Shown piece after piece: positions 3,410 to 50,523 of a stretch of DNA of 50,732 nt. This DNA comes from Escherichia phage atuna. The notes beneath the pieces were generated by a model. It was not told the DNA's origin. It did not search any database and saw only the letters and a program-made list of their open reading frames with translations. A program made the translations under genes and the position numbers. The stretch lies in sequence record NC_049819.1, one strand, 5' to 3'. Positions within the stretch are counted from its first letter, which is position 1. Each line of letters opens with the position of its first letter.

Positions 3410-3824
3410 TAAGCATGTATTCAATAGCCAACTTAAACTGATTGAATCCGTAGGCTACCGCAGCGAATCCTCCTAAGCTGCGAACGCGACGCAAAAAAGC
3501 CTTTTGTTCATCGCTGACTGGTGATGCTTTCCCCTTGCCTGATTTATTCACTCGTTTGATCTCAATCGCTGCAAAGGGGTATTTTCCGTTTAAACCAATC
3601 AGGATGATGAAATCGCTTACTCCCTTAACCAAGCCGGACTGCTGATCAATCATCGCCGTTGCTTTAGACTTCTCATTCTCGTTTACCGTATGCCACGCCA
3701 GCAAATAAGGATGAGCATAAGTCAACCACTGAAAACTATCTATCTGGTGATTAACTTCCCTTCTCGTGTCGGTTGGATCCCTTTCGTAAAACTCAAGATA
3801 ATCGCCTTTATCAGTTATAGCCAT
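3405..3824 (-). CDS. VRR-NUC domain nuclease
   Basis: AIEIKRVNKSGKGKASPVSDEQKAFLRRVRSLGGFAAVAYGF resembles VRR-NUC E-x-K core; 139 aa. Confidence 0.55.
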   Translation of the reverse strand: MAITDKGDYLEFYERDPTDTRREVNHQIDSFQWLTYAHPYLLAWHTVNENEKSKATAMIDQQSGLVKGVSDFIILIGLNGKYPFAAIEIKRVNKSGKGKASPVSDEQKAFLRRVRSLGGFAAVAYGFNQFKLAIEYMLK

Positions 3825-5821
3825 TAAACAAACTCCCGTTTTGCAATGTTATCCTCACCTTTGCCGTTTTTGCGATGCGTTACGCGTACAGGAGGCATGA
3901 TGTGATGAGCGTATGACATTATTTTACGCGCATTTCTATAGCTCGCCACCATACCAGCAATCTTGCGATCCGGTATGTGCTGCAATGCTATTTTTCTCCA
4001 TATCGTCCGGCAAATGTTGCTTTCTGACTCAGGGAAAAATCTTTCGTATGCCTTGAACGTGTCGCCGTTGGCCTCAAGCTCATAGCAAAAAACAATTCCT
4101 TTCTGGTTTTTCGTCATATCAACGCGGAAAGATTTAACGTTGCACCAATCGTTTTTGGTGTAGTGCTTGCCGCTTAACTTCTCGTTAGGATCGACAAGAG
4201 AAATATCGCAACAACGGCAAACTCTCGCCACTACGTCGTTTTTTGTTCCGCAACCGCGCTTGATTATCTTTTTCGTTCTCGGATCTACCTGGTCCTCGCA
4301 AATTCTGTAAGTCCAAAAATGCTCGCATCTCTTCCCGTTATCGTCTACGTGCATACATCGGCGAGCGTAAAAGCTGTTTAGCGTTCCACATATCGGACAA
4401 GTCTTAGGCTCTTTCCCGTTTGTAAATCTCTTTTGGAATTGCGCTTGCTCAAGGATTGGATCGAAATACAAATCCCCTAACTCATCCATAGTACCAGCAA
4501 AATCCAATACAAGATGGTCTTTTTTCTTGAATCCCTGCTCAATGTGCCATTGCTTAAGCAGTCGCATACCGCGCCCCAAAAGCTGGATAAGCAATGTTAG
4601 AGATCCTATCTTTCTCAGTATTACAGAAGTATCCCAAAACGGAACGTTAACGCCAGTGGTAAGCGCCTGTACCTGGAAGATGTATTTTACTTTTCCCTCG
4701 TATGCCTCCCTCAGCCACTCTTTACGCTGATTGTCTCCAGTCTTGCCAGTTATGATCCTGTATTCAACGCCTGGCGGCAGTGCGGCGGCGGCCTCCTTGC
4801 AGTGTCTTTCCCCTGCGCATGTAACTAAAACTCCGTTCCTGTCTTTGCATATCTCATGGACTTTAGCCATGATTTTCTGTGTCATTGTTGCGTCTTGATG
4901 GATCTTTTCTTCCATCTTGCGCAATGTTTTAGCGTCAAAGTCTGAAACGCCATCCTCGCTACTGGCTTCGAACTCTGAAAGGTCATACCCCAGGTCGCCT
5001 ACGTCGCCGAAATTTGTTGGCACTACAGAACCGAATTTGATTAAGTAGTTTGTGTCTATGTTAGTCACCTGCTCACGCCAGAATCCCTTTTTGTTCTTAT
5101 CTTCAACCAGTATTGGAACCACGCCGCGAAATTCAGATCCAGTCATACCGAATATTCGCAATTCGTGCCCGTATGCCTCGCGACACCTGCGCATCATTTC
5201 CATGATTATTACCGTGTACTGTGTGCGTCCTGTTCCGAACATTGGATCGCCATTGGAATCAAATTGCTGTTCTTCTCCAATCAGTACAGGCAAATCCTTC
5301 TTAGTGGTCATCTGCTGGTAAGATTCATTATTTTCTATCGCGTCGGCGAGATCCTCCCAATCCACCTGGTGACATTCATCAATACCGATAACGTGCGGAA
5401 CATAATCACCTAACGACTTAAACAATCCGTTTACCACAGTGCCCTCAGAACCGACTACGATCGGAAAGTATGCGCTTTTTGTTTTCAGTCCGGCGCAATA
5501 GATTGAGTTTGGCACGCCAAGATTGCTGATCTCTTCTGAATCCTGATCAACAATTTCAGCCTGACGAGCAAGCACCATCATTTTCAATCCCATTTTGCGG
5601 CATTGCGCCGCAACCATCGCAAACATCAATGTTTTGCCAGCCGACACAGAAGCCTTAACAAAGAAAGGATGCTCATAGTTTTTCATGCGCTTTGCGATCT
5701 CGGCATACGCAACGCACTGATAAGGATAAGGCACTATATTGCCAACCGTGAATCGCTCTTGGATGCTTTTTATTACTGCCTCGCCTAACGCTGATATTTG
5801 TTTTTCGATATTTGGAATCAT
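3824..5821 (-). CDS. ATP-dependent SF2 helicase (DEAD/DEAH-like)
   Basis: Walker A SVSAGKT and motif II IDECHQ in 665-aa protein. Confidence 0.8.
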   Translation of the reverse strand: MIPNIEKQISALGEAVIKSIQERFTVGNIVPYPYQCVAYAEIAKRMKNYEHPFFVKASVSAGKTLMFAMVAAQCRKMGLKMMVLARQAEIVDQDSEEISNLGVPNSIYCAGLKTKSAYFPIVVGSEGTVVNGLFKSLGDYVPHVIGIDECHQVDWEDLADAIENNESYQQMTTKKDLPVLIGEEQQFDSNGDPMFGTGRTQYTVIIMEMMRRCREAYGHELRIFGMTGSEFRGVVPILVEDKNKKGFWREQVTNIDTNYLIKFGSVVPTNFGDVGDLGYDLSEFEASSEDGVSDFDAKTLRKMEEKIHQDATMTQKIMAKVHEICKDRNGVLVTCAGERHCKEAAAALPPGVEYRIITGKTGDNQRKEWLREAYEGKVKYIFQVQALTTGVNVPFWDTSVILRKIGSLTLLIQLLGRGMRLLKQWHIEQGFKKKDHLVLDFAGTMDELGDLYFDPILEQAQFQKRFTNGKEPKTCPICGTLNSFYARRCMHVDDNGKRCEHFWTYRICEDQVDPRTKKIIKRGCGTKNDVVARVCRCCDISLVDPNEKLSGKHYTKNDWCNVKSFRVDMTKNQKGIVFCYELEANGDTFKAYERFFPESESNICRTIWRKIALQHIPDRKIAGMVASYRNARKIMSYAHHIMPPVRVTHRKNGKGEDNIAKREFV

Positions 5822-5908: not shown

Positions 5909-6385
5909 ATGAAAGATGCACGAATTGCAGTATCTACTGGTGAGATCGACAAGCGCACTATTAACGGTAACAACGGAACGCGACGAGGTAAAGACAAAAA
6001 GCCACGAAAACACCGAACCGGATTTCTTATCCTGCGAGATGAGGTAAAAGCAAGCCTGAAATCTCGCCTTGACATTCTGATCGAGTATTACGGCGGTGTT
6101 CCTGCTATGGCCCGACGTCTGCGCGTATCTCAGCAAGTCGTTAACCAGTGGCGAAAGCGTGGTATGATTTCAGCCGCTGGAGCACAAAAGGTGCATAACG
6201 ACTACAAATATAATGGGTGCAAAGGATACCGCGCATCATTTTGTCGTCCAGATCTGCGGTTTGATTCTAACGGCAAGCCTCTTACTACCCGTTGCGACAA
6301 ATACGAAATGTTGCGCGTAGTCAAAAATTCAGACTACGAACCAGGCGGACGATTCTACAAAGGTGATAACAGCACGAATAGCTAA
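5909..6385 (+). CDS. HTH DNA-binding protein (Cro/YdaS-like motif)
   Basis: VPAMARRLRVSQQVVNQWRKRGMIS helix-turn-helix-like segment; SD gagg upstream. Confidence 0.5.
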   Translation: MKDARIAVSTGEIDKRTINGNNGTRRGKDKKPRKHRTGFLILRDEVKASLKSRLDILIEYYGGVPAMARRLRVSQQVVNQWRKRGMISAAGAQKVHNDYKYNGCKGYRASFCRPDLRFDSNGKPLTTRCDKYEMLRVVKNSDYEPGGRFYKGDNSTNS

Positions 6386-6392
6386 TGATAAG

Positions 6393-6428
6393 GCCCAGCG
6401 AAATGATAATATTTGCTGGGCTTTTTTA
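6393..6428 (+). terminator. Hairpin + T-run between HTH gene and primase-like gene
   Basis: gcccagcg...tgctgggc dyad followed by TTTTTTATT, then SD gagg and ATG 6441. Confidence 0.45.
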
Positions 6429-6440
6429 TTGAGGTTTGCC

Positions 6441-7370
6441 ATGAATACTGAAAACTTTATGACCTATCAGAAAGAAGATGTTTTACCATATATGAAGGGG
6501 TTATGGCGTGAAGCACTACAAAGCATTTGCGGACTGCATAGCGATGTTTTCAACAAAAAGCATCAGCCTTGCCCACACTGCGGCGGCAAGGATCGTTTTA
6601 GATGGACTGATAAGCTAAATGAAGAGGGCGACGGCGGCGCTATCTGCAACGTATGCGGTAACGACACGGGGATCGGTTGGTTAATGAAATTAACTGGCGA
6701 ACCTTACAGCGAGGCCATCAATATTTTGGGTCGCTTCCTCGGAAAAGTGCCGCAGGATTACAGGATCAGAGCAAACAAACGCGCTTCGCGTTCTTCTGGT
6801 TACTCGTTCGGGAAACAGGCAAGTCATGAATGCTGCGAAAAAGTGATGGCAAAAACATTAAAATTCGATCGCACACCTTTAAGCGTTTATGAGGGGATAT
6901 ATCCGACGGAAGGTTGTCATTATGATTGCGGCGTCAAGGATGGTCGATACATTCACGCGCTACCTTGTCACTTGGTGCATGATGACGGGCTTGATGATGA
7001 AATGTGTAACGTGCTTTTCATTGATGAGGATGGAAAGGATTGGTTTTTAGCTCGCGACTACACGCGCGGATCTGTTGTTAAAACAGGTAGCACAGATAAG
7101 ACGATCTATTTGTGCCTTGATTGGGTTGATTCCCAGCATGTTCATTTATCAACTGGTCAAGAGGTGTGGGCTTGCTTTACTCCTTCAAATCTTGAAATGG
7201 TTGCGCATAGATATAAAGGAGAAAGAAGAATGCGAGTAGTCTGCCGGAAAGATGATCGTGATGTGATAATCGCGGCAGAGGAAAGAGGTCTTGACATAAT
7301 GATGCCTGTTGACGATAATTTTAAACAGGGCGTAGAAAGAAAACTCTACAAGCCCGAATCACTACTATAA
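6441..7370 (+). CDS. Putative DNA primase-like protein with N-terminal zinc ribbon
   Basis: CPHCGG...CNVCG zinc-ribbon; start moved from 6363 to ATG 6441 (SD gagg; upstream region forms terminator hairpin); position between helicase and tail fibre. Confidence 0.5.
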   Translation: MNTENFMTYQKEDVLPYMKGLWREALQSICGLHSDVFNKKHQPCPHCGGKDRFRWTDKLNEEGDGGAICNVCGNDTGIGWLMKLTGEPYSEAINILGRFLGKVPQDYRIRANKRASRSSGYSFGKQASHECCEKVMAKTLKFDRTPLSVYEGIYPTEGCHYDCGVKDGRYIHALPCHLVHDDGLDDEMCNVLFIDEDGKDWFLARDYTRGSVVKTGSTDKTIYLCLDWVDSQHVHLSTGQEVWACFTPSNLEMVAHRYKGERRMRVVCRKDDRDVIIAAEERGLDIMMPVDDNFKQGVERKLYKPESLL

Positions 7371-9719: not shown

Positions 9720-10172
9720 TTAGAAGGGTATATCGTCGTCAAAGTCAATCGGAGGCTGATTGCTTTGCTGTGGTTGCTGTTGAGTATTTTGTTGCTGTTG
9801 CTGTTGTGGTTGCCACCAGCCTCCTTGCGTTCGCTGTTGATATTGTTGCTGGCTTTCCCCACGCTGGCTAAATAGCAAGTTTGCAAATCCGCCAGGCTGC
9901 ACGGTGCTGTAAATCTTTCCGTTGTATTCTCGCGTTTCAACCCGCAAGGTGTCGCAGGAAACAGAAATAACCTTACCAACCTGGAACGCCTCAGCATACC
10001 AACCATTCAGGCCGTCTGTTTTCGCGTTAAAGAAAAATACATAGTTTGTATACTGCCAATTGCCTTCACGGTCTTTATATCGTTCGGAAAGCTCAACAAC
10101 ATATAGCGTGCTGCCGTTAGGCATTTGCTTTACTTTTGGCTCTTTTCGGATCTCACCTGTAATAACGTGCAT
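9720..10172 (-). CDS. ssb: Single-stranded DNA-binding protein
   Basis: Gln/Pro-rich tail ending DFDDDIPF (canonical SSB C-terminus); start at internal Met MHVITG preceded by AGGAG. Confidence 0.85.
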   Translation of the reverse strand: MHVITGEIRKEPKVKQMPNGSTLYVVELSERYKDREGNWQYTNYVFFFNAKTDGLNGWYAEAFQVGKVISVSCDTLRVETREYNGKIYSTVQPGGFANLLFSQRGESQQQYQQRTQGGWWQPQQQQQQNTQQQPQQSNQPPIDFDDDIPF

Positions 10173-10215
10173 TTTGTTTTCTCCTATGACAAAAGGGGCG
10201 CAAGCGCCCCGTTTA

Positions 10216-10884
<669 letters not shown>

Positions 10885-10945: not shown

Positions 10946-12001
10946 TCATAGATACTGCCTGAATTGAGCGCGGACCCAATCAGGAGTATCAAGATCAATT
11001 TCTGGTTGCCCGTTTGCATACGAAGGCCATTCATCTAACTGTTGGCAAACGTTGAACTTGTTGATCACGCTCATGTACTGGATACGCCCGATCTTCAATT
11101 GCTCAATGTTCATGCGGAATGCGAGCGGCAAGTAAGGCTCTTTCTTCTCTTGAGCAAGCAATCTCACAATTACTGGCCTTTCCTCGTCTGGATACGCCTT
11201 TTTAAATAAATCATGCTGCAAAGCCATTTTGAGATAATAGCCGTGATTGTAAGCCAGGCGCTGGAAGTCAACCGGATTTGCGCTAACCGTTGTTTTATAG
11301 TCAGTGATAATCACAGCTTCTGGATAGATGACTTCTTCATAAATCGGTCGGCCTTTTTCGTCGTAACCGTTAATGATTGTGGCCTTTACATCCTTGTTTA
11401 CGTCAACGTGATCAAGGCGCACTTTAACTTTTACGCCATTGATGATCCCGAATATTGACATTTCACGCTGCGCGGTTGGGCTATTCATGCAAGCATTATG
11501 CTCAGGTATTGCCTCAAGTACGCGCCGCATCGCTACACAGGCATCATAATCTTTCGCGTCGATTAGCTGCACGCCGTCCGCTGCGGCCTGGCATTCTGCC
11601 ATCATTTCGATAAGCCACCACACATTGAGATCCTCACCGCACTTGTACAGCATTTCCAGCAATTCAGGGTATTGCTTACCCGTCGTACCTTTCAGGCCAA
11701 AAGATTTCAGCTTTGAGGCTAACGCCGTTTGACTTGTGATCAGATCTTTAAAATCATCCTGCGACGGTGCGCGGCGATATGTTTTTTCGAATAACTCCTT
11801 GCTTTCAAAATTGGTATGCGACTGCGTACCGAAAACAAGTGCCTTAGTTTCCTGGCGAGGCTTGTACTTCCAGTACGCCGGGCAAGTGCTGTAAATCTCC
11901 GCCAAGCTGGAACCGCTGACGTATTCAGCCGTCCACGCGTTAGGATCATGATAAAGCTCATTGCTCATTTCTTCGCTAGTGTAGGCGTTAAAATCACTCA
12001 T
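10946..12001 (-). CDS. Recombination exonuclease (PD-(D/E)XK, RecE/YqaJ-like)
   Basis: 351 aa; VIITDYK-type D-x-K segment; first gene of exo/annealing/SSB cluster. Confidence 0.55.
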   Translation of the reverse strand: MSDFNAYTSEEMSNELYHDPNAWTAEYVSGSSLAEIYSTCPAYWKYKPRQETKALVFGTQSHTNFESKELFEKTYRRAPSQDDFKDLITSQTALASKLKSFGLKGTTGKQYPELLEMLYKCGEDLNVWWLIEMMAECQAAADGVQLIDAKDYDACVAMRRVLEAIPEHNACMNSPTAQREMSIFGIINGVKVKVRLDHVDVNKDVKATIINGYDEKGRPIYEEVIYPEAVIITDYKTTVSANPVDFQRLAYNHGYYLKMALQHDLFKKAYPDEERPVIVRLLAQEKKEPYLPLAFRMNIEQLKIGRIQYMSVINKFNVCQQLDEWPSYANGQPEIDLDTPDWVRAQFRQYL

Positions 12002-42174: not shown

Positions 42175-42203
42175 ATTATCAATAATGCTATTTAATGTGT
42201 CAA
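42175..42203 (-). promoter_or_regulatory. Sigma70-type promoter (TTGACA-N17-GATAAT) for leftward early arm
   Basis: Exact TTGACA, 17-nt spacer, GATAAT on minus strand about 30 nt upstream of SD of gene 41682-42146. Confidence 0.6.
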
Positions 42204-42510
42204 CTGTTTTTTCTTGTTCCCGCGTGTTTTATCAATTTTACATGGTGGCACAATAACAATATAGGCGTTATTTTTCCTTATAAATCAATGTTATCATTGC
42301 CTGTTATCTAAGTTTTCTCGCGGAAAGTGCCATATAGATATATATACCCCTACATACCCATACACACATACAGATACACAAAAACTATATACCCCCACCA
42401 AATACCACAATAACCAAGATAACAAAAGAGAATATATAGATACATATAAATAAATAATCCTTATTTTTCAATGTATTATATAGGTATTGTTTGTTATTTT
42501 TTGTTATCGT
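42196..42510. repeat. A+C-rich strand-skewed low-complexity element, copy B (homologous to 12141-12350, with about 100-bp extra segment)
   Basis: Shared blocks with copy A; sits in the 640-bp non-coding region between divergent early arms. Confidence 0.6.
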
Positions 42511-42741
42511 ATTTTGCGGAAGGTCAACAAAAGAACAGGCGGGAACGTAACATAACAACCACTGACAGCCAGGCGGAAAAGTGAGGCAAGAGGGGAAGGT
42601 TTCACTATCTCCCATGCAACCAATGATTAAACGTGATTGCTTTTCTCATCAAATTTGCAAAGGCAATCATCATTTTGACGTGATTTGATTACGAATGATT
42701 ACTTTTGATTATTTCGATCACAATCCTGGCGCTAACCGTCA

Positions 42742-42761
42742 AATAGCACTTTTTGTTAAAA
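42742..42761 (+). promoter_or_regulatory. Conserved intergenic motif copy (exact) + leader CATCGAAACGAA for rightward early arm
   Basis: Exact 20-mer about 60 nt upstream of ATG 42821. Confidence 0.55.
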
Positions 42762-42820
42762 CTCAGGCCACCTGATCGGGTACATTACACACATCGAAAC
42801 GAACCGCTCAGGAGATAGCA

Positions 42821-47045: not shown

Positions 47046-47432
47046 ATGAATGTTATCTGTAATGAAACCAACGTATTGATGAAAGGCCGTTTTAAAACGG
47101 TTTATCAGAAGATTGCAGGAAGTGATGATGTGATCGAGGTGGAAGAGTTCCAGGTTAAGACGCTTGTTAAGGGTAGCCGCTGGCTTCCAGCAAACCGAGA
47201 TGATTACCGCGCCATTAACACAAAAACCGTTCTTTGCACGTTTGTAGATCATAACATGCCGTGCAAAAAGCACTTTAAGCAGGGCAAGCGATACCAGATC
47301 GAGAAAGGGCGACCGCTTGGAAGCGTTGCGGGTTATGTTTTTGATGAGTGCGGCGACCGCTGGAACCTGTACCGTGAAGAGGTCGGATTCTCTGCTGGCG
47401 GCTGTTATCTGTTTGAGGGCAAATATCTGTGA
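47046..47432 (+). CDS. Hypothetical early protein (128 aa)
   Basis: ORF with SD aaggag. Confidence 0.45.
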   Translation: MNVICNETNVLMKGRFKTVYQKIAGSDDVIEVEEFQVKTLVKGSRWLPANRDDYRAINTKTVLCTFVDHNMPCKKHFKQGKRYQIEKGRPLGSVAGYVFDECGDRWNLYREEVGFSAGGCYLFEGKYL

Positions 47433-47650
47433 TAAACAGTGAAAACCGTTACAAAGTAACGCATTCTACCACAAAGACTTTCAAGCCTGGCGATATAGTC
47501 AGGCCCATCAAAAAAACGGCGGTAGGTTGGCTGATTGGTTTTTCATATCATAAGGCGCTTTACTTTACGTTTAAGGATGGGATTACAGGAGAATGCTACA
47601 GCGACCGCCAGCCTGATCGACTTCTGGTTGCAATAGAGCGGATCAAATAG
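47429..47650 (+). CDS. Hypothetical early protein (73 aa)
   Basis: ORF, ATGA coupling. Confidence 0.45.
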   Translation: MINSENRYKVTHSTTKTFKPGDIVRPIKKTAVGWLIGFSYHKALYFTFKDGITGECYSDRQPDRLLVAIERIK

Positions 47651-47665
47651 CACTTTTTGACAAAA
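47646..47665 (+). promoter_or_regulatory. Motif variant (AATAGCACTTTTTGACAAAA) + hairpin upstream of P-loop NTPase operon
   Basis: Variant creates exact TTGACA; hairpin tgggccgttaaaatttacggccca follows. Confidence 0.55.
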
Positions 47666-47718
47666 CGGGGTAGTATTGGGCCGTTAAAATTTACGGCCCA
47701 CAAAGGAGAAGCTAACGA

Positions 47719-49299
47719 ATGTTTTCATTAGAAACGAACAAATTAACTCCACAGCAAATAATCGCTATGGCTGAAAGCCAGAACCTTTCACCAGTTCGCG
47801 TATCAATTCAGGCTAACGGCTATCGCCAGTCGTCCAGCTTTTGGGGCGACGTGAAGGATGTAAATAGCGGTCACGATCGCTACCCCGTAATTTCTCTTGG
47901 TAATGATATTGATGTTGTCGGCAAGCTATCACGCAGTATTGCGCGATCCGTTCAATTCCCTGAATCATCGGCTTACATGCACTTTATCGGCTGCATTTCT
48001 GCCGCCATGCTTGGACGCTTTACGGTTGACTATCACGGGACCGATCAGCCGACTGCGCTTTACGTAGTTACAAGCCAGCCGCCGTCAACTGGTAAATCTG
48101 CGATCAACAGTATGGCTATTGCTCCGATGATTGCGGAAGTTGAGAAGATCAACGAGCAACGCCGCAAGGAAAGAAAGAAAATACAGGCAAAGTTGGCAGG
48201 TCTTGCAAAGGAGATGAAAAGCGAAAGATCAGGCGCTGATATGGAATCTCTATACCAGGAAAAAGAGGATCTGGAGGAGAAGCTGGAAAAGATGTGTGAT
48301 ATAACTTTCCCTGTTTCAGATACAACTCCAGAAGGCTTGGCAAAAATCAACAACAAGCAAGGTAACTTTGCCGTAATATCTGACGAAGCAACAAGTATTA
48401 ACAGTCTGTTAGGCTTGACCTATGCCAATAGCGAAAGGAAGACTAACAGTGAGCTAGTGCTTAAGGCGTGGGATAATGGTCACGTATCAATTGCCCGTGC
48501 TAATGCTGACAATAACATGAGTTTTCGCGCGCTTGGATGTATGAGCGTTATAGCCCAGGATGAAACGATAAGCGGAATCATGGATGCTGGATCTCGCGGT
48601 ATCGGTGTGAGTGAGCGCTTTTTGTTGGTCCGTGAGGAATCATTCTTAGGCCGTCGCTCATTCATTGATGAAAATGGTGATTCTACCTATGAGGCGGTGG
48701 ATCCTGAATTGAAGGCCCAATATTATCAATTGGTGCATAACATCATGAGCGAATCAAATATATCGCTGAAAATAAGCCGTTCAGCTATGCGAGTGCTCAA
48801 CATTGCTCGCCAGGATATGGAACCGCATCTTGCAGACGGCGGAAAGTATTCTCATACAATGTTACGCGGTGCGCTGGGTAAAATGGATAAACAGGTGATC
48901 AGGCTTGCTTCCGTCCTGCATGTTATCCGCAACTGGTTTAATCCTGCCGGATACCCGCAGAAGTCGAAAGAGATCGACGTGGAAACAATGCAAGAGGCGC
49001 TGATCATGTTTCAGGAATTGAGCAAAACATACATTAGCGCCGCCAATGCTTCTGGTTATGCTGGTGATGATGCTGAAATGGGTAAATTGATTGAATTGAT
49101 CACTAGACACGGCAAGGCTAATAAAGGGATTCTGAATATCCGCGCCCTGTACGAATCAGCGAGAAAGGTAAAACCTTTCGTTGGTCAGGCTGGCGTAATG
49201 AAGAGGATAGAGGGGCACTTGCTGCCAATGCTGGAAGAAAGAAATTATGTTTGCGTGATTAATGGTGTTATTTTTGTCAATCCAATACTGCTGGGATGA
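47719..49299 (+). CDS. P-loop NTPase-like protein of unknown function (526 aa)
   Basis: Degenerate Walker A PPSTGKS and Walker B-like FAVISDEAT; internal coiled-coil; largest early-arm gene. Confidence 0.55.
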   Translation: MFSLETNKLTPQQIIAMAESQNLSPVRVSIQANGYRQSSSFWGDVKDVNSGHDRYPVISLGNDIDVVGKLSRSIARSVQFPESSAYMHFIGCISAAMLGRFTVDYHGTDQPTALYVVTSQPPSTGKSAINSMAIAPMIAEVEKINEQRRKERKKIQAKLAGLAKEMKSERSGADMESLYQEKEDLEEKLEKMCDITFPVSDTTPEGLAKINNKQGNFAVISDEATSINSLLGLTYANSERKTNSELVLKAWDNGHVSIARANADNNMSFRALGCMSVIAQDETISGIMDAGSRGIGVSERFLLVREESFLGRRSFIDENGDSTYEAVDPELKAQYYQLVHNIMSESNISLKISRSAMRVLNIARQDMEPHLADGGKYSHTMLRGALGKMDKQVIRLASVLHVIRNWFNPAGYPQKSKEIDVETMQEALIMFQELSKTYISAANASGYAGDDAEMGKLIELITRHGKANKGILNIRALYESARKVKPFVGQAGVMKRIEGHLLPMLEERNYVCVINGVIFVNPILLG

Positions 49300-49691
49300 T
49301 TATGTTTTTGCTTGATCTGTATAAATGGTGTGAGTCATACGACTGGTTTAACAGGCAGCACATAGCCAAATTTATCTATCAGCATAGAGAATGTGAGCGG
49401 CTCGCACGGGCCGCCGGACTTACTCCGCGAATGTTCTCCAGCCTTACATCTAAGGAATTTTGCGCAAGAATGATGACGGCTGGCTATATAGATGGGGTCT
49501 GCGGTAAATACTGGTCCAAAGGATCGTCAAAGCGGCCTTTCGGATTCGAATTGTATAGCCTGGATGGTATGCGCAACGACTGGGTCAGGGATATGGCTAG
49601 AATAGGGGAGATGGGCGATGATGAATTGTTCCAGGCAAAAGCTAATAGACAAGATCTTGAAGCACTGCGCCGTAAATTCAATATCACATGA
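49296..49691 (+). CDS. Hypothetical protein (131 aa), coupled to P-loop NTPase gene
   Basis: Start overlaps upstream stop (ATGA). Confidence 0.45.
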   Translation: MIMFLLDLYKWCESYDWFNRQHIAKFIYQHRECERLARAAGLTPRMFSSLTSKEFCARMMTAGYIDGVCGKYWSKGSSKRPFGFELYSLDGMRNDWVRDMARIGEMGDDELFQAKANRQDLEALRRKFNIT

Positions 49692-50113: not shown

Positions 50114-50135
50114 AAATAAAGGAGGCATTAAGCCT
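50103..50135. terminator. Bidirectional terminator between rightward early arm and spanin gene
   Basis: A-run, aaggaggcattaagcctcctt hairpin, T-run. Confidence 0.7.
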
Positions 50136-50523
50136 CCTTTTTCTTTTCTCTCCAGTAAAGACAAATCAGCACAATTAACACAACCACGCATATGATTACC
50201 GGATCGTACCATCTGCCGTTATTACCCTGCACGACCTGAATTTTGTCTGCCTTGATGGTATTGGCCTGAATGGTTGATGTTGTGAAATCCTTCTTGCTGG
50301 ACGTGTCCACCTTGTCAACCGCAGATTCCTTTATTGTGGTTTTCTGTTTTGTGCTGGCGTCCTGCTTTGCTGTAATGCCAACTGTCTGCTTCACGTTCTC
50401 CGCGCCAGCCTGTGCTGTGATTTCCGGCTTACTGCCGATTAATCCGGTCAGTGGCGTAACGCTTGAACATCCAGACAAGATCACCGCCATTGCGATTGGT
50501 GTAAGTAAAAATTTCTTCATCAT
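50128..50523 (-). CDS. Unimolecular spanin (outer-membrane lipoprotein with C-terminal transmembrane anchor)
   Basis: Signal peptide with lipobox LSGC ([19 protein letters not shown]), Ser/Thr/Lys-rich linker, C-terminal [19 protein letters not shown] then basic tail; start overlaps endolysin stop (ATGA). Confidence 0.7.

What the first reader, a model, noticed from the sequence alone, without database searches (positions are those of the whole stretch)
47646..49691. Early-arm operon encoding a 526-aa P-loop NTPase-like protein plus coupled 131-aa partner, function unknown
Largest gene of the early arm. It has a degenerate Walker A (VVTSQPPSTGKSA) and a Walker B-like hhhhDE (FAVISDEAT) separated by a charged coiled-coil, and it is translationally coupled (ATGA) to a 131-aa ORF. 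It has its own motif-type promoter with an exact TTGACA. It is separate from the identified helicase and primase genes, so it could be a replication initiator or helicase loader, or an ATP-dependent host-takeover or anti-defence factor. I could not assign it to a known family from the sequence alone.
Basis: inference. Interest (0 to 1): 0.65.

Follow-up and report, generated by a model that had tools for sequence, protein, structure and literature searches.

The report
T1-like phage MCM-type helicase operon
The 526-aa gene is the DUF3987 (MCM-like AAA+) DNA helicase found in essentially all T1-like phages and already labelled "DNA helicase" in close relatives; its small coupled partner is an uncharacterised winged-helix protein, so the finding is ordinary apart from the partner's open role.

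Summary
Both ORFs, the ATGA overlap, the Walker-like motifs and the TTGACA box are in the sequence as described. The window is very probably Escherichia phage atuna (Drexlerviridae, Warwickvirus).

The gene occurs in 924 phage records, including T1, and is 100% identical to an annotated "DNA helicase" in phage Kalemo. In distant relatives it sits in one operon with primase, an SF2 helicase, an exonuclease and SSB.

The 131-aa partner is restricted to T1-like phages and always lies next to the helicase. It has a predicted winged-helix fold, and its "YdbL" label is unsupported. Its role is unknown; loader, origin binder or coupling factor are guesses.

The "promoter" is the known 21-nt T1/TLS repeat element, not a canonical -35/-10 promoter.

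Low interest.

The parts
47645..47665 (+). Copy of the T1/TLS-type 21-nt direct-repeat element (AAATAGCACTTTTTGACAAAA). It contains the TTGACA box at 47657-47662.
   Evidence: Six early-arm copies. Twenty copies genome-wide within 3 mismatches against 0.53 expected, oriented with transcription. Same consensus as the TLS repeat aaATAGCACnnnTTGnTAAAA, which lies about 76 nt upstream of start codons (PMC11447400). Here it lies 74 nt upstream of the ATG.
47685..47690 (+). -10-like hexamer TAAAAT, 22 nt downstream of the TTGACA box.
   Evidence: In register with TAnAnT in all six aligned early-arm copies. The spacing is too long for a canonical -35/-10 pair, and the scan finds no sigma-70 promoter here. 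Promoter function is inferred, not shown.
47678..47699 (+). Hairpin GGGCCGT / ACGGCCC (7-bp stem) that encloses the -10-like hexamer. No T-run follows it.
   Evidence: Read directly from the sequence. Not called as a terminator. Function unknown.
47704..47708 (+). Shine-Dalgarno sequence AGGAG, 10 nt before the ATG at 47719.
   Evidence: Sequence.
47719..49299 (+). CDS of 526 aa: DUF3987 / superfamily-6 (MCM-like AAA+) helicase.
47719..48009 (+). N-terminal helical region (residues 1-97). No OB-fold or zinc domain of the MCM type.
   Evidence: Secondary structure of the model: only helices H11-21, H25-33, H36-41, H66-78 and H82-97. No Pfam hit. Function unknown.
48076..48099 (+). Walker A / P-loop QPPSTGKS (residues 120-127). 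The first Gly of GxxxxGK[ST] is replaced by Gln.
   Evidence: Q120, P121, P122, S123, G125, K126 and S127 are invariant in 28 homologues. The motif follows strand E115-119 in the model.
48094..48291 (+). Long charged antiparallel helical hairpin (residues 126-191) inserted between Walker A and Walker B.
   Evidence: H126-168 and H172-191, pLDDT 84-96. The Pfam DUF3987 profile aligns collinearly across this stretch (residues 81-430 against profile positions 3-350), so the insert belongs to the family.
48367..48387 (+). Walker B FAVISDE (residues 217-223).
   Evidence: Strand E217-221 followed by D222 and E223. E223 is invariant, and D222 is Ala in 5 of 28 homologues.
48547..48564 (+). VIAQDE (residues 277-282), at the end of the strand that follows a beta-hairpin. 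This is the sensor-1 position of the AAA+ fold.
   Evidence: I278, A279, D281 and E282 are invariant. Strands E255-258 and E267-270 form a hairpin in the pre-sensor-1 position, followed by E273-279. The assignment rests on topology and on known MCM motif order; it is an inference.
48610..48621 (+). SERF (residues 298-301): candidate arginine finger, R300.
   Evidence: E299 and R300 are invariant. The motif lies immediately before strand E301-305, as the MCM 'SRFD' arginine-finger motif does. The MCM comparison is from established knowledge and is an inference.
48865..48867 (+). R383: candidate sensor-2 arginine in the lid domain.
   Evidence: R383, G384, G387, K388 and D390 are invariant. R383 lies in helix H380-387. 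Inference.
48979..49296 (+). C-terminal winged-helix domain (residues ~421-526).
49296..49691 (+). CDS of 131 aa (conserved start probably ATG 49302, giving 129 aa): small winged-helix protein restricted to T1-like phages, translationally coupled to the helicase.
49617..49631 (+). Conserved acidic motif DDELF (partner residues 108-112). In the shorter homologues it lies at or near the C-terminus.
   Evidence: D108, L111 and F112 are invariant and E110 is nearly so. Function unknown.

Best explanation
The 526-aa protein is the DUF3987-family, superfamily-6 (MCM-like AAA+) ring helicase of this T1-like phage. It most likely assembles as a hexamer, with ATP bound between subunits. The proposed catalytic residues are Walker A K126, Walker B D222/E223 and a trans-acting R300 finger. 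It would unwind phage DNA at the replication fork. It would work with the phage's own DnaG-type primase (6363-7370) and its SSB (9720-10223, whose tail ends DFDDDIPF like the E. coli SSB tip). DNA synthesis would be done by the host Pol III, because the phage encodes no DNA polymerase. The 131-aa product is made by translational coupling, so in roughly fixed proportion to the helicase. It is a small winged-helix protein specific to T1-like phages. The most plausible role is as an accessory of the helicase: binding DNA at the loading site, or bridging the helicase to another replisome component.

Shown here: family membership, fold, motif conservation, distribution and gene linkage.
Inferred: hexamer formation, fork function, polarity, and any role of the partner.
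For: Family and fold:
- Pfam DUF3987, 151 bits against a cut-off of 27.
- PHROG 2373 'DNA helicase', E 3.6e-244.
- C-terminal winged helix as in MCM and as described for DUF3987.
- Invariant Walker A, Walker B Glu, SERF and R383 across homologues of 36-100% identity.

Literature:
- DUF3987 is classified as SF6 putative replicative helicases, and phage N4 dns is an essential member (PMC4889955).
- The PriCT-DUF3987 protein AgaPH is a 5'-3' helicase that depends on Walker A/B and binds its primase-polymerase (PMC11724360).

Distribution and linkage:
- 924 phage records, including T1 at 58% identity.
- Counts per host genus nearly match those of the primase.
- In relatives of 36-39% identity the gene lies in one operon with a DnaG-type primase, SF2 helicase, DUF3799 exonuclease and SSB.
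- The window has a primase, SF2 helicase, Erf, exonuclease and SSB but no polymerase, and the SSB tail is host-like.

Partner:
- Winged-helix fold.
- Adjacent to the helicase in T1, SECphi27, tiwna, Ec_L1, VAC11 and LeonhardEuler. In NPat an HNH endonuclease gene is inserted between them.
Against: - No experiment on this protein, or on any Drexlerviridae orthologue, was found in the searchable literature.
- The T1/TLS literature names the primase and the SF2 helicase as the replication pair and does not discuss this gene.
- In this phage the gene is not next to the primase. It lies about 7 kb away across the genome ends, with the lysis cassette in between.
- The Walker A lacks the first glycine, and Walker B Asp is Ala in 5 of 28 homologues.
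- The MCM-type N-terminal OB/zinc domain is absent.
- Polarity is unknown: MCM moves 3'-5', AgaPH 5'-3'.
Confidence: 0.75

Rival explanations
1. Self-loading initiator-helicase. The protein recognises and melts the phage origin itself through its C-terminal winged helix, possibly with the partner's winged helix. It would then act like SaPI Rep, P4 alpha or papillomavirus E1, and the SF2 helicase or host DnaB would do most of the fork unwinding.
For: It has a C-terminal winged-helix domain, and a second winged-helix protein is coupled to it. The SaPI5 primase-helicase (7ola) and the SCCmec Cch helicase appear among the fold matches. No DnaA-, DnaC- or lambda-O/P-like initiator turned up among the annotated genes of the relative tiwna or the ORFs scanned here.
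Against: No iterons or origin-like repeats were found in or beside the operon. The only repeat-rich non-coding stretch is 5 kb upstream, at 42183-42820. This reading overlaps the best explanation rather than excluding it.
Confidence: 0.12
2. Recombination or repair motor. An AAA+ translocase would act in branch migration or recombination-dependent replication, like MCM8/9, ComM or RuvB, rather than as the fork helicase.
For: MCM8/9 and ComM are among the structural matches. In relatives the gene sits beside recombination genes: DUF3799 exonuclease, AAA_24 and SSB. T1-like phages carry Erf and a RecE-like exonuclease.
Against: The same operons also hold the primase, and without this gene the phage would have no ring helicase. 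The family is linked to primases generally, and N4 dns is essential for replication.
Confidence: 0.08
3. ATP-dependent host-takeover or anti-defence factor.
For: It lies in the early arm among many small genes of unknown function. A neighbouring 128-aa gene may be the Mokosh type I trigger reported for SECphi27.
Against: It is a core gene present in more than 900 phages, with strongly conserved catalytic motifs. It gives no PADLOC hit. Its family and fold are those of replicative helicases. In distant relatives it is embedded in replication operons.
Confidence: 0.03

Closest known systems
DUF3987 (Pfam PF13148) helicases: AgaPH (PriCT-DUF3987) of Seonamhaeicola, phage N4 dns, Mycobacterium phage Corndog SF6 protein
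   Same: Full-length match to the family profile. Walker A with a variant first position, Walker B DE, and a C-terminal winged helix. Genetic linkage to a primase in relatives.
   Different: There is no PriCT or AEP primase domain; the N-terminus is a short helical region of unknown function. In this phage the gene is separated from the DnaG-type primase, and a lineage-specific winged-helix gene is coupled downstream. No biochemistry exists for this orthologue.
Archaeal/eukaryotic MCM (superfamily-6 replicative helicase)
   Different: Only 11-19% identity, and the Pfam MCM model does not match. It lacks the N-terminal OB-fold/zinc domain. A long helical hairpin occupies the position between Walker A and Walker B. 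The polarity of the one characterised DUF3987 helicase is 5'-3', opposite to MCM.
MCM-like helicases of bacterial mobile elements: SCCmec Cch (5dgk), Bacillus cereus prophage BcMCM, SaPI5 primase-helicase (7ola)
   Different: Much weaker structural similarity than to MCM itself. Different N-terminal domains. These are not DUF3987 members by sequence.
Small winged-helix DNA-binding proteins (MarR, ArsR, PadR, E2F/DP, cullin WHB), as the comparison for the 131-aa partner
   Different: No sequence family match. It has an extra C-terminal ~55 residues with the invariant RPF and DDELF motifs, and invariant C12/H22/H30/C33, which could be a metal site (untested). The 'YdbL' label in GenBank relatives has no support: no Pfam family matches it, including the one that covers E. 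coli YdbL.

Membership tests
DUF3987 (PF13148) / PHROG 2373 | Score above the curated Pfam gathering threshold over most of the profile | tested here: met
   151.2 bits against 27; residues 81-430 on profile positions 3-350 of 364. PHROG 2373, E 3.6e-244, full length.
DUF3987 (PF13148) / PHROG 2373 | [quoted passage not shown] | tested here: met
   QPPSTGKS and ISDE. K126, S127 and E223 are invariant in 28 homologues; D222 is Ala in 5 of them. The motif definitions come from PMC11724360.
DUF3987 (PF13148) / PHROG 2373 | [quoted passage not shown] 2016) | tested here: met
DUF3987 (PF13148) / PHROG 2373 | Association with an AEP or DnaG primase, fused or encoded next to it | tested here: inconclusive
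   Not adjacent in this window: the primase at 6363-7370 is about 7 kb away across the genome ends. Adjacent or close by in relatives of 36-39% identity (L005, Akira).
DUF3987 (PF13148) / PHROG 2373 | ATP-dependent DNA unwinding by an oligomer | not testable with these tools
   Needs purified protein. Shown only for AgaPH.
MCM family proper (PF00493) | Sequence match to the MCM AAA+ model | tested here: not met
   No MCM family among the Pfam hits at E up to 0.1. No PDB sequence hit with the single sequence or the profile.
MCM family proper (PF00493) | AAA+ core of the pre-sensor-1 beta-hairpin clade | tested here: met
MCM family proper (PF00493) | N-terminal OB-fold / zinc-binding domain | tested here: not met
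   Residues 1-97 of the model are helices and loops only.
YdbL (label given to the 131-aa partner in GenBank relatives) | Match to the Pfam/NCBIfam family that contains E. coli YdbL | tested here: not met
   No Pfam or NCBIfam hit at E up to 0.1. The predicted fold is a winged helix.
Winged-helix (wHTH) fold, for the partner | Three-helix bundle plus beta-hairpin wing | tested here: met
DnaC / lambda P-type helicase loaders, for the partner | AAA+ ATPase domain (DnaC) or sequence match to the lambda P family | tested here: not met
   131 aa with no P-loop and no Pfam or PHROG match to loader families.

The most novel reading that the evidence does not exclude
The 131-aa winged-helix protein could be a loader, origin-recognition factor or replisome-coupling factor specific to T1-like phages. 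It would serve an MCM-type (SF6) ring helicase that works inside an otherwise bacterial replisome: phage DnaG-type primase, phage SSB with a host-like DFDDDIPF tip, and host Pol III. T1-like phages would then be a simple, genetically tractable model of how an MCM-like helicase is loaded and coupled to a bacterial polymerase.
Probability: 0.25. Interest if true: 0.45.

Novelty: already known. Interest (0 to 1): 0.15.

Why it matters
It matters little as a discovery. The gene family, its fold class and its likely role are published, and the same protein is already annotated as a DNA helicase in close relatives.

Three things are useful:
- A correction for annotators. T1 and TLS papers still treat the SF2 helicase as 'the' replication helicase and leave this gene as hypothetical. 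The partner carries an unsupported 'YdbL' label.
- A clearer picture of the T1-like replisome: an MCM-like helicase, a DnaG-type primase, an SSB with a host-type tail, and a borrowed host polymerase.
- A defined open question: what the coupled winged-helix protein does.

Tried and rejected
- NCBIfam and PADLOC scans of both proteins: no hits.
- Sequence and profile searches of the PDB with both proteins: only chance-level hits, so no solved structure of a detectable relative exists.
- Sigma-70 promoter scan upstream of the operon: nothing at the TTGACA box.
- Search for paralogues of the helicase N-terminus, its C-terminal domain, or the partner elsewhere in the window: none.
- Search for iterons, tandem repeats or inverted repeats in or around the operon as an origin signature: nothing convincing. 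GC skew only follows transcription direction.
- Profile comparison of the partner with the small genes that flank DUF3987 in distant relatives (L004, L005): no similarity. Those genes are a different set (AP2, HTH-like, DUF551).
- Literature check for defence-system triggers in the close relative SECphi27. The RAZR trigger Gp77 is the Erf recombinase and CapRel senses the capsid; neither is this gene.
- Rfam scan of the whole window: no match.
- Fold search of the partner against AFDB50: library unavailable.
- Supplementary tables of Kazlauskas et al. 2016, to see whether T1 was listed: not held.
- Literature search for classical T1 amber-mutant work on genes 1 and 2: nothing retrievable.
Full report
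**What is there.**
The window carries ORF 47719-49299 (+, 526 aa) and ORF 49296-49691 (+, 131 aa), which overlap in ATGA. The 526-aa ORF is the largest of the + strand arm. The partner protein is 100% identical over 129 aa to 'YdbL [Escherichia phage atuna]', which sits on a contig of exactly 50,732 bp. The DNA is 98-99% identical to Warwickvirus phages such as tiwna, tonijn and FritzSarasin. The window is therefore very probably the genome of phage atuna (Drexlerviridae, Tempevirinae, Warwickvirus; taxonomy).

**Checking the motifs.**
VVTSQPPSTGKSA is residues 116-128 and FAVISDEAT is residues 217-225. I aligned 28 homologues of 36-100% identity.
- Q120, P121, P122, S123, G125, K126 and S127 are invariant.
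- S221 and E223 are invariant; D222 is Ala in 5 sequences.
- Also invariant are I278-A279-x-D281-E282, E299-R300 (within SERF), and R383/G384/G387/K388/D390.

The AlphaFold2 model built on this alignment is confident (mean pLDDT 88.5, pTM 0.86). Its layout is:
- The P-loop follows a strand, E115-119.
- Walker B ends strand E217-221.
- A beta-hairpin (E255-258/E267-270) precedes strand E273-279.
- SERF comes just before strand E301-305.
- A helical lid contains R383.
- The C-terminal domain (~421-526) is made of helices plus a beta-hairpin.

**What family it is.**
- The protein is a clear member of Pfam DUF3987 (E 5.9e-44; 151 bits against a cut-off of 27; residues 81-430 collinear with the profile). 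It also matches PHROG 2373 'DNA helicase' (E 3.6e-244).
- The C-terminal domain matches the winged-helix domains of ORC2, Cdc6, Stn1 and cullin.
- Foldseek independently returns only MCM subunits in its top 50 (E 1e-5 to 2e-3).
- No solved structure is detectable by sequence.

By topology and by the known MCM motif order, VIAQDE sits at the sensor-1 position, R300 in SERF corresponds to the MCM 'SRFD' arginine finger, and R383 corresponds to sensor 2. These assignments are inferences. So the Walker motifs do sit in an NTPase fold, and that fold is the helicase-type AAA+ fold.

**What is already known about the family.**
- Kazlauskas et al. 2016 (PMC4889955) linked DUF3987 to MCM by profile comparison and placed it in helicase superfamily 6.
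- The same paper noted the C-terminal winged helix and frequent fusion or adjacency to AEP or DnaG primases. It named phage N4 dns, which is essential for replication, as a member. It proposed that these proteins are phage replicative helicases.
- A 2025 study (PMC11724360) showed that a PriCT-DUF3987 protein, AgaPH, is an oligomeric, ATP/dATP-dependent 5'-3' helicase. Its activity is abolished by Walker A or B mutations, and it binds its primase-polymerase.

**Distribution and context.**
- tblastn finds the helicase in 924 phage records, 909 of them nearly full length. These include T1 at 58% identity and a 100% identical protein in phage Kalemo. Under the matches the records are annotated 'DNA helicase', 'putative helicase' or 'DUF3987 domain-containing protein'.
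- Counts per host genus are close to those of the phage primase: Escherichia 293 against 315, Klebsiella 420 against 469, Shigella 37 against 37. It is a core gene of T1-like phages.
- In relatives of 36-39% identity the gene lies in a single operon with replication genes. One contig has DUF3987, a DnaG-type primase, an SF2 helicase and a DUF3799 exonuclease (L005). Another has DUF3987, an SF2 helicase, DUF3799, AAA_24 and SSB (L004). Salmonella phage Akira has DUF3987, two small genes, then the primase and the SF2 helicase.
- This window holds the same set dispersed: SF2 helicase 3824-5821 (-), primase with a T7-type zinc ribbon 6363-7370 (+), SSB 9720-10223 (-), Erf 10216-10869 (-) and a RecE-like exonuclease 10946-12001 (-). 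No DNA polymerase was found.
- The SSB ends in DFDDDIPF. To my knowledge that is the E. coli SSB C-terminal tip, which fits a replisome that borrows host Pol III.

**The partner.**
- The 131-aa product matches only PHROG 2794, of unknown function. It has no Pfam, NCBIfam or PADLOC hit. The 'YdbL' label that propagates through GenBank relatives is therefore unsupported.
- The alignment of 21 homologues indicates that the conserved start is the second ATG (49302), 2 nt after the helicase stop.
- Invariant residues include C12, H22, H30 and C33 (a possible metal site, untested), R80-P81-F82, and an acidic DDELF motif. In the shorter homologues DDELF lies at or near the C-terminus.
- The gene is in 833 phage records and directly follows the helicase wherever both coordinates were visible. 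In Klebsiella phage NPat an HNH endonuclease gene is inserted between them.
- A profile search of 5.8 billion proteins finds 172 clusters; all 120 listed are short proteins of 111-132 aa, many on ~45-52 kb contigs.
- Distant DUF3987 loci carry unrelated small genes instead.

The partner is therefore a lineage-specific accessory of the helicase module. Calling it a loader, an origin binder or a coupling factor is speculation.

**The 'promoter'.**
TTGACA (47657-47662) is part of a 21-nt repeat, AGCACTTTTTGTTAAAA.
- It has 20 copies genome-wide within 3 mismatches against 0.53 expected, oriented with transcription.
- It is the element already described for TLS, T1 and related phages: aaATAGCACnnnTTGnTAAAA, 21 copies, about 76 nt upstream of start codons, function undecided (PMC11447400).
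- In the six early-arm copies a TAnAnT hexamer lies 22 nt downstream, in register. In this copy it is TAAAAT at 47685-47690, inside the loop of a 7-bp hairpin (47678-47699).
- The spacing is not that of a -35/-10 pair, and the consensus scan finds no sigma-70 promoter here.
- The repeat may act as an UP-like or factor-binding element with a -10. That is an inference.

**Verdict.**
It is an NTPase with a replication role, but it belongs to a known family and is most likely the ring helicase itself, not a loader or an anti-defence factor.
- The best mechanism is a hexameric SF6 helicase acting at the phage fork with the phage primase, phage SSB and host Pol III (confidence about 0.75 for the helicase, much lower for any specific role of the partner).
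- The rivals are a self-loading initiator-helicase, a recombination motor and an anti-defence ATPase. DNA-synthesis phenotypes of mutants and simple biochemistry would separate them.
- Novelty: already known. Interest is low. The only open point of some value is the role of the coupled winged-helix protein.

Noticed in passing
window 42183-42820: A ~640-bp non-coding, AT-rich (GC about 0.40) divergent region lies between the minus-strand arm and the first + strand early gene. It contains short repeats: ATACATACCC/ACATACAC (42340-42380), an AT-rich block (42434-42510) and about six TGATTA(C) units (42622-42715). It is a candidate replication origin or regulatory region. A comparable ~670-bp unannotated gap is present in phage tiwna.
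   Followed up: partly
window, 20 sites on both strands (e.g. 2319, 3390, 23593, 36188, 42745, 44049, 46975, 47649, 49811): The 21-nt repeat AGCACTTTTTGTTAAAA has 20 copies against 0.53 expected and is always oriented with transcription. It is the TLS/T1 direct-repeat element of undecided function. In the six early-arm copies a TAnAnT hexamer lies 22 nt downstream, which suggests a non-canonical promoter architecture.
   Followed up: partly
window 47046-47432 (+), 128 aa, PHROG 2684: This gene lies two genes upstream of the helicase and is the homologue of SECphi27 gp13 (128 aa). [quoted passage not shown]
   Followed up: partly
window 9720-10223 (-): The phage SSB (PHROG 44) ends in ...PPIDFDDDIPF, which from memory is the same tip as E. 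coli SSB. This suggests it recruits host SSB-interacting proteins, in keeping with the lack of a phage DNA polymerase.
   Followed up: no
window 10216-10869 (-): This Erf-like annealing protein appears to correspond to the SECphi27 Gp77 described in the RAZR paper: Erf-like and encoded next to the SSB. Gp77's 24-mer ring was shown in 2026 to activate the RAZR defence RNase (PMC13017515). I did not compare the two sequences directly.
   Followed up: no
phage database hits: About 20 records named 'Campylobacter phage' (e.g. A143, A134; host given as C. jejuni) carry T1-like genomes whose helicase is 88% identical to this coliphage protein. This probably reflects mislabelled or contaminating coliphages. 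Separately, the helicase is annotated 'NADPH-flavin oxidoreductase' in Citrobacter phage Brooksby, and the partner is annotated 'YdbL' in many records. Both labels look like annotation errors.
   Followed up: no
helicase residues 441-525 (window 49039-49293); Klebsiella phage KL 6230-6508; Rogunavirus records with two matching places: The C-terminal winged-helix domain of the helicase also matches a separate PHROG (7327, unknown function). It also occurs as a stand-alone or second copy in some related phages (43% identity in phage KL, in an unannotated stretch). There is no second copy in this window.
   Followed up: partly
window 50118-50140: A perfect 9-bp-stem hairpin, AAAGGAGGC-ATTAA-GCCTCCTTT, has T-runs on both sides. 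It lies between the convergent + strand arm and the minus-strand lysis cassette and is probably a bidirectional terminator closing the transcription unit that contains the helicase operon.
   Followed up: no
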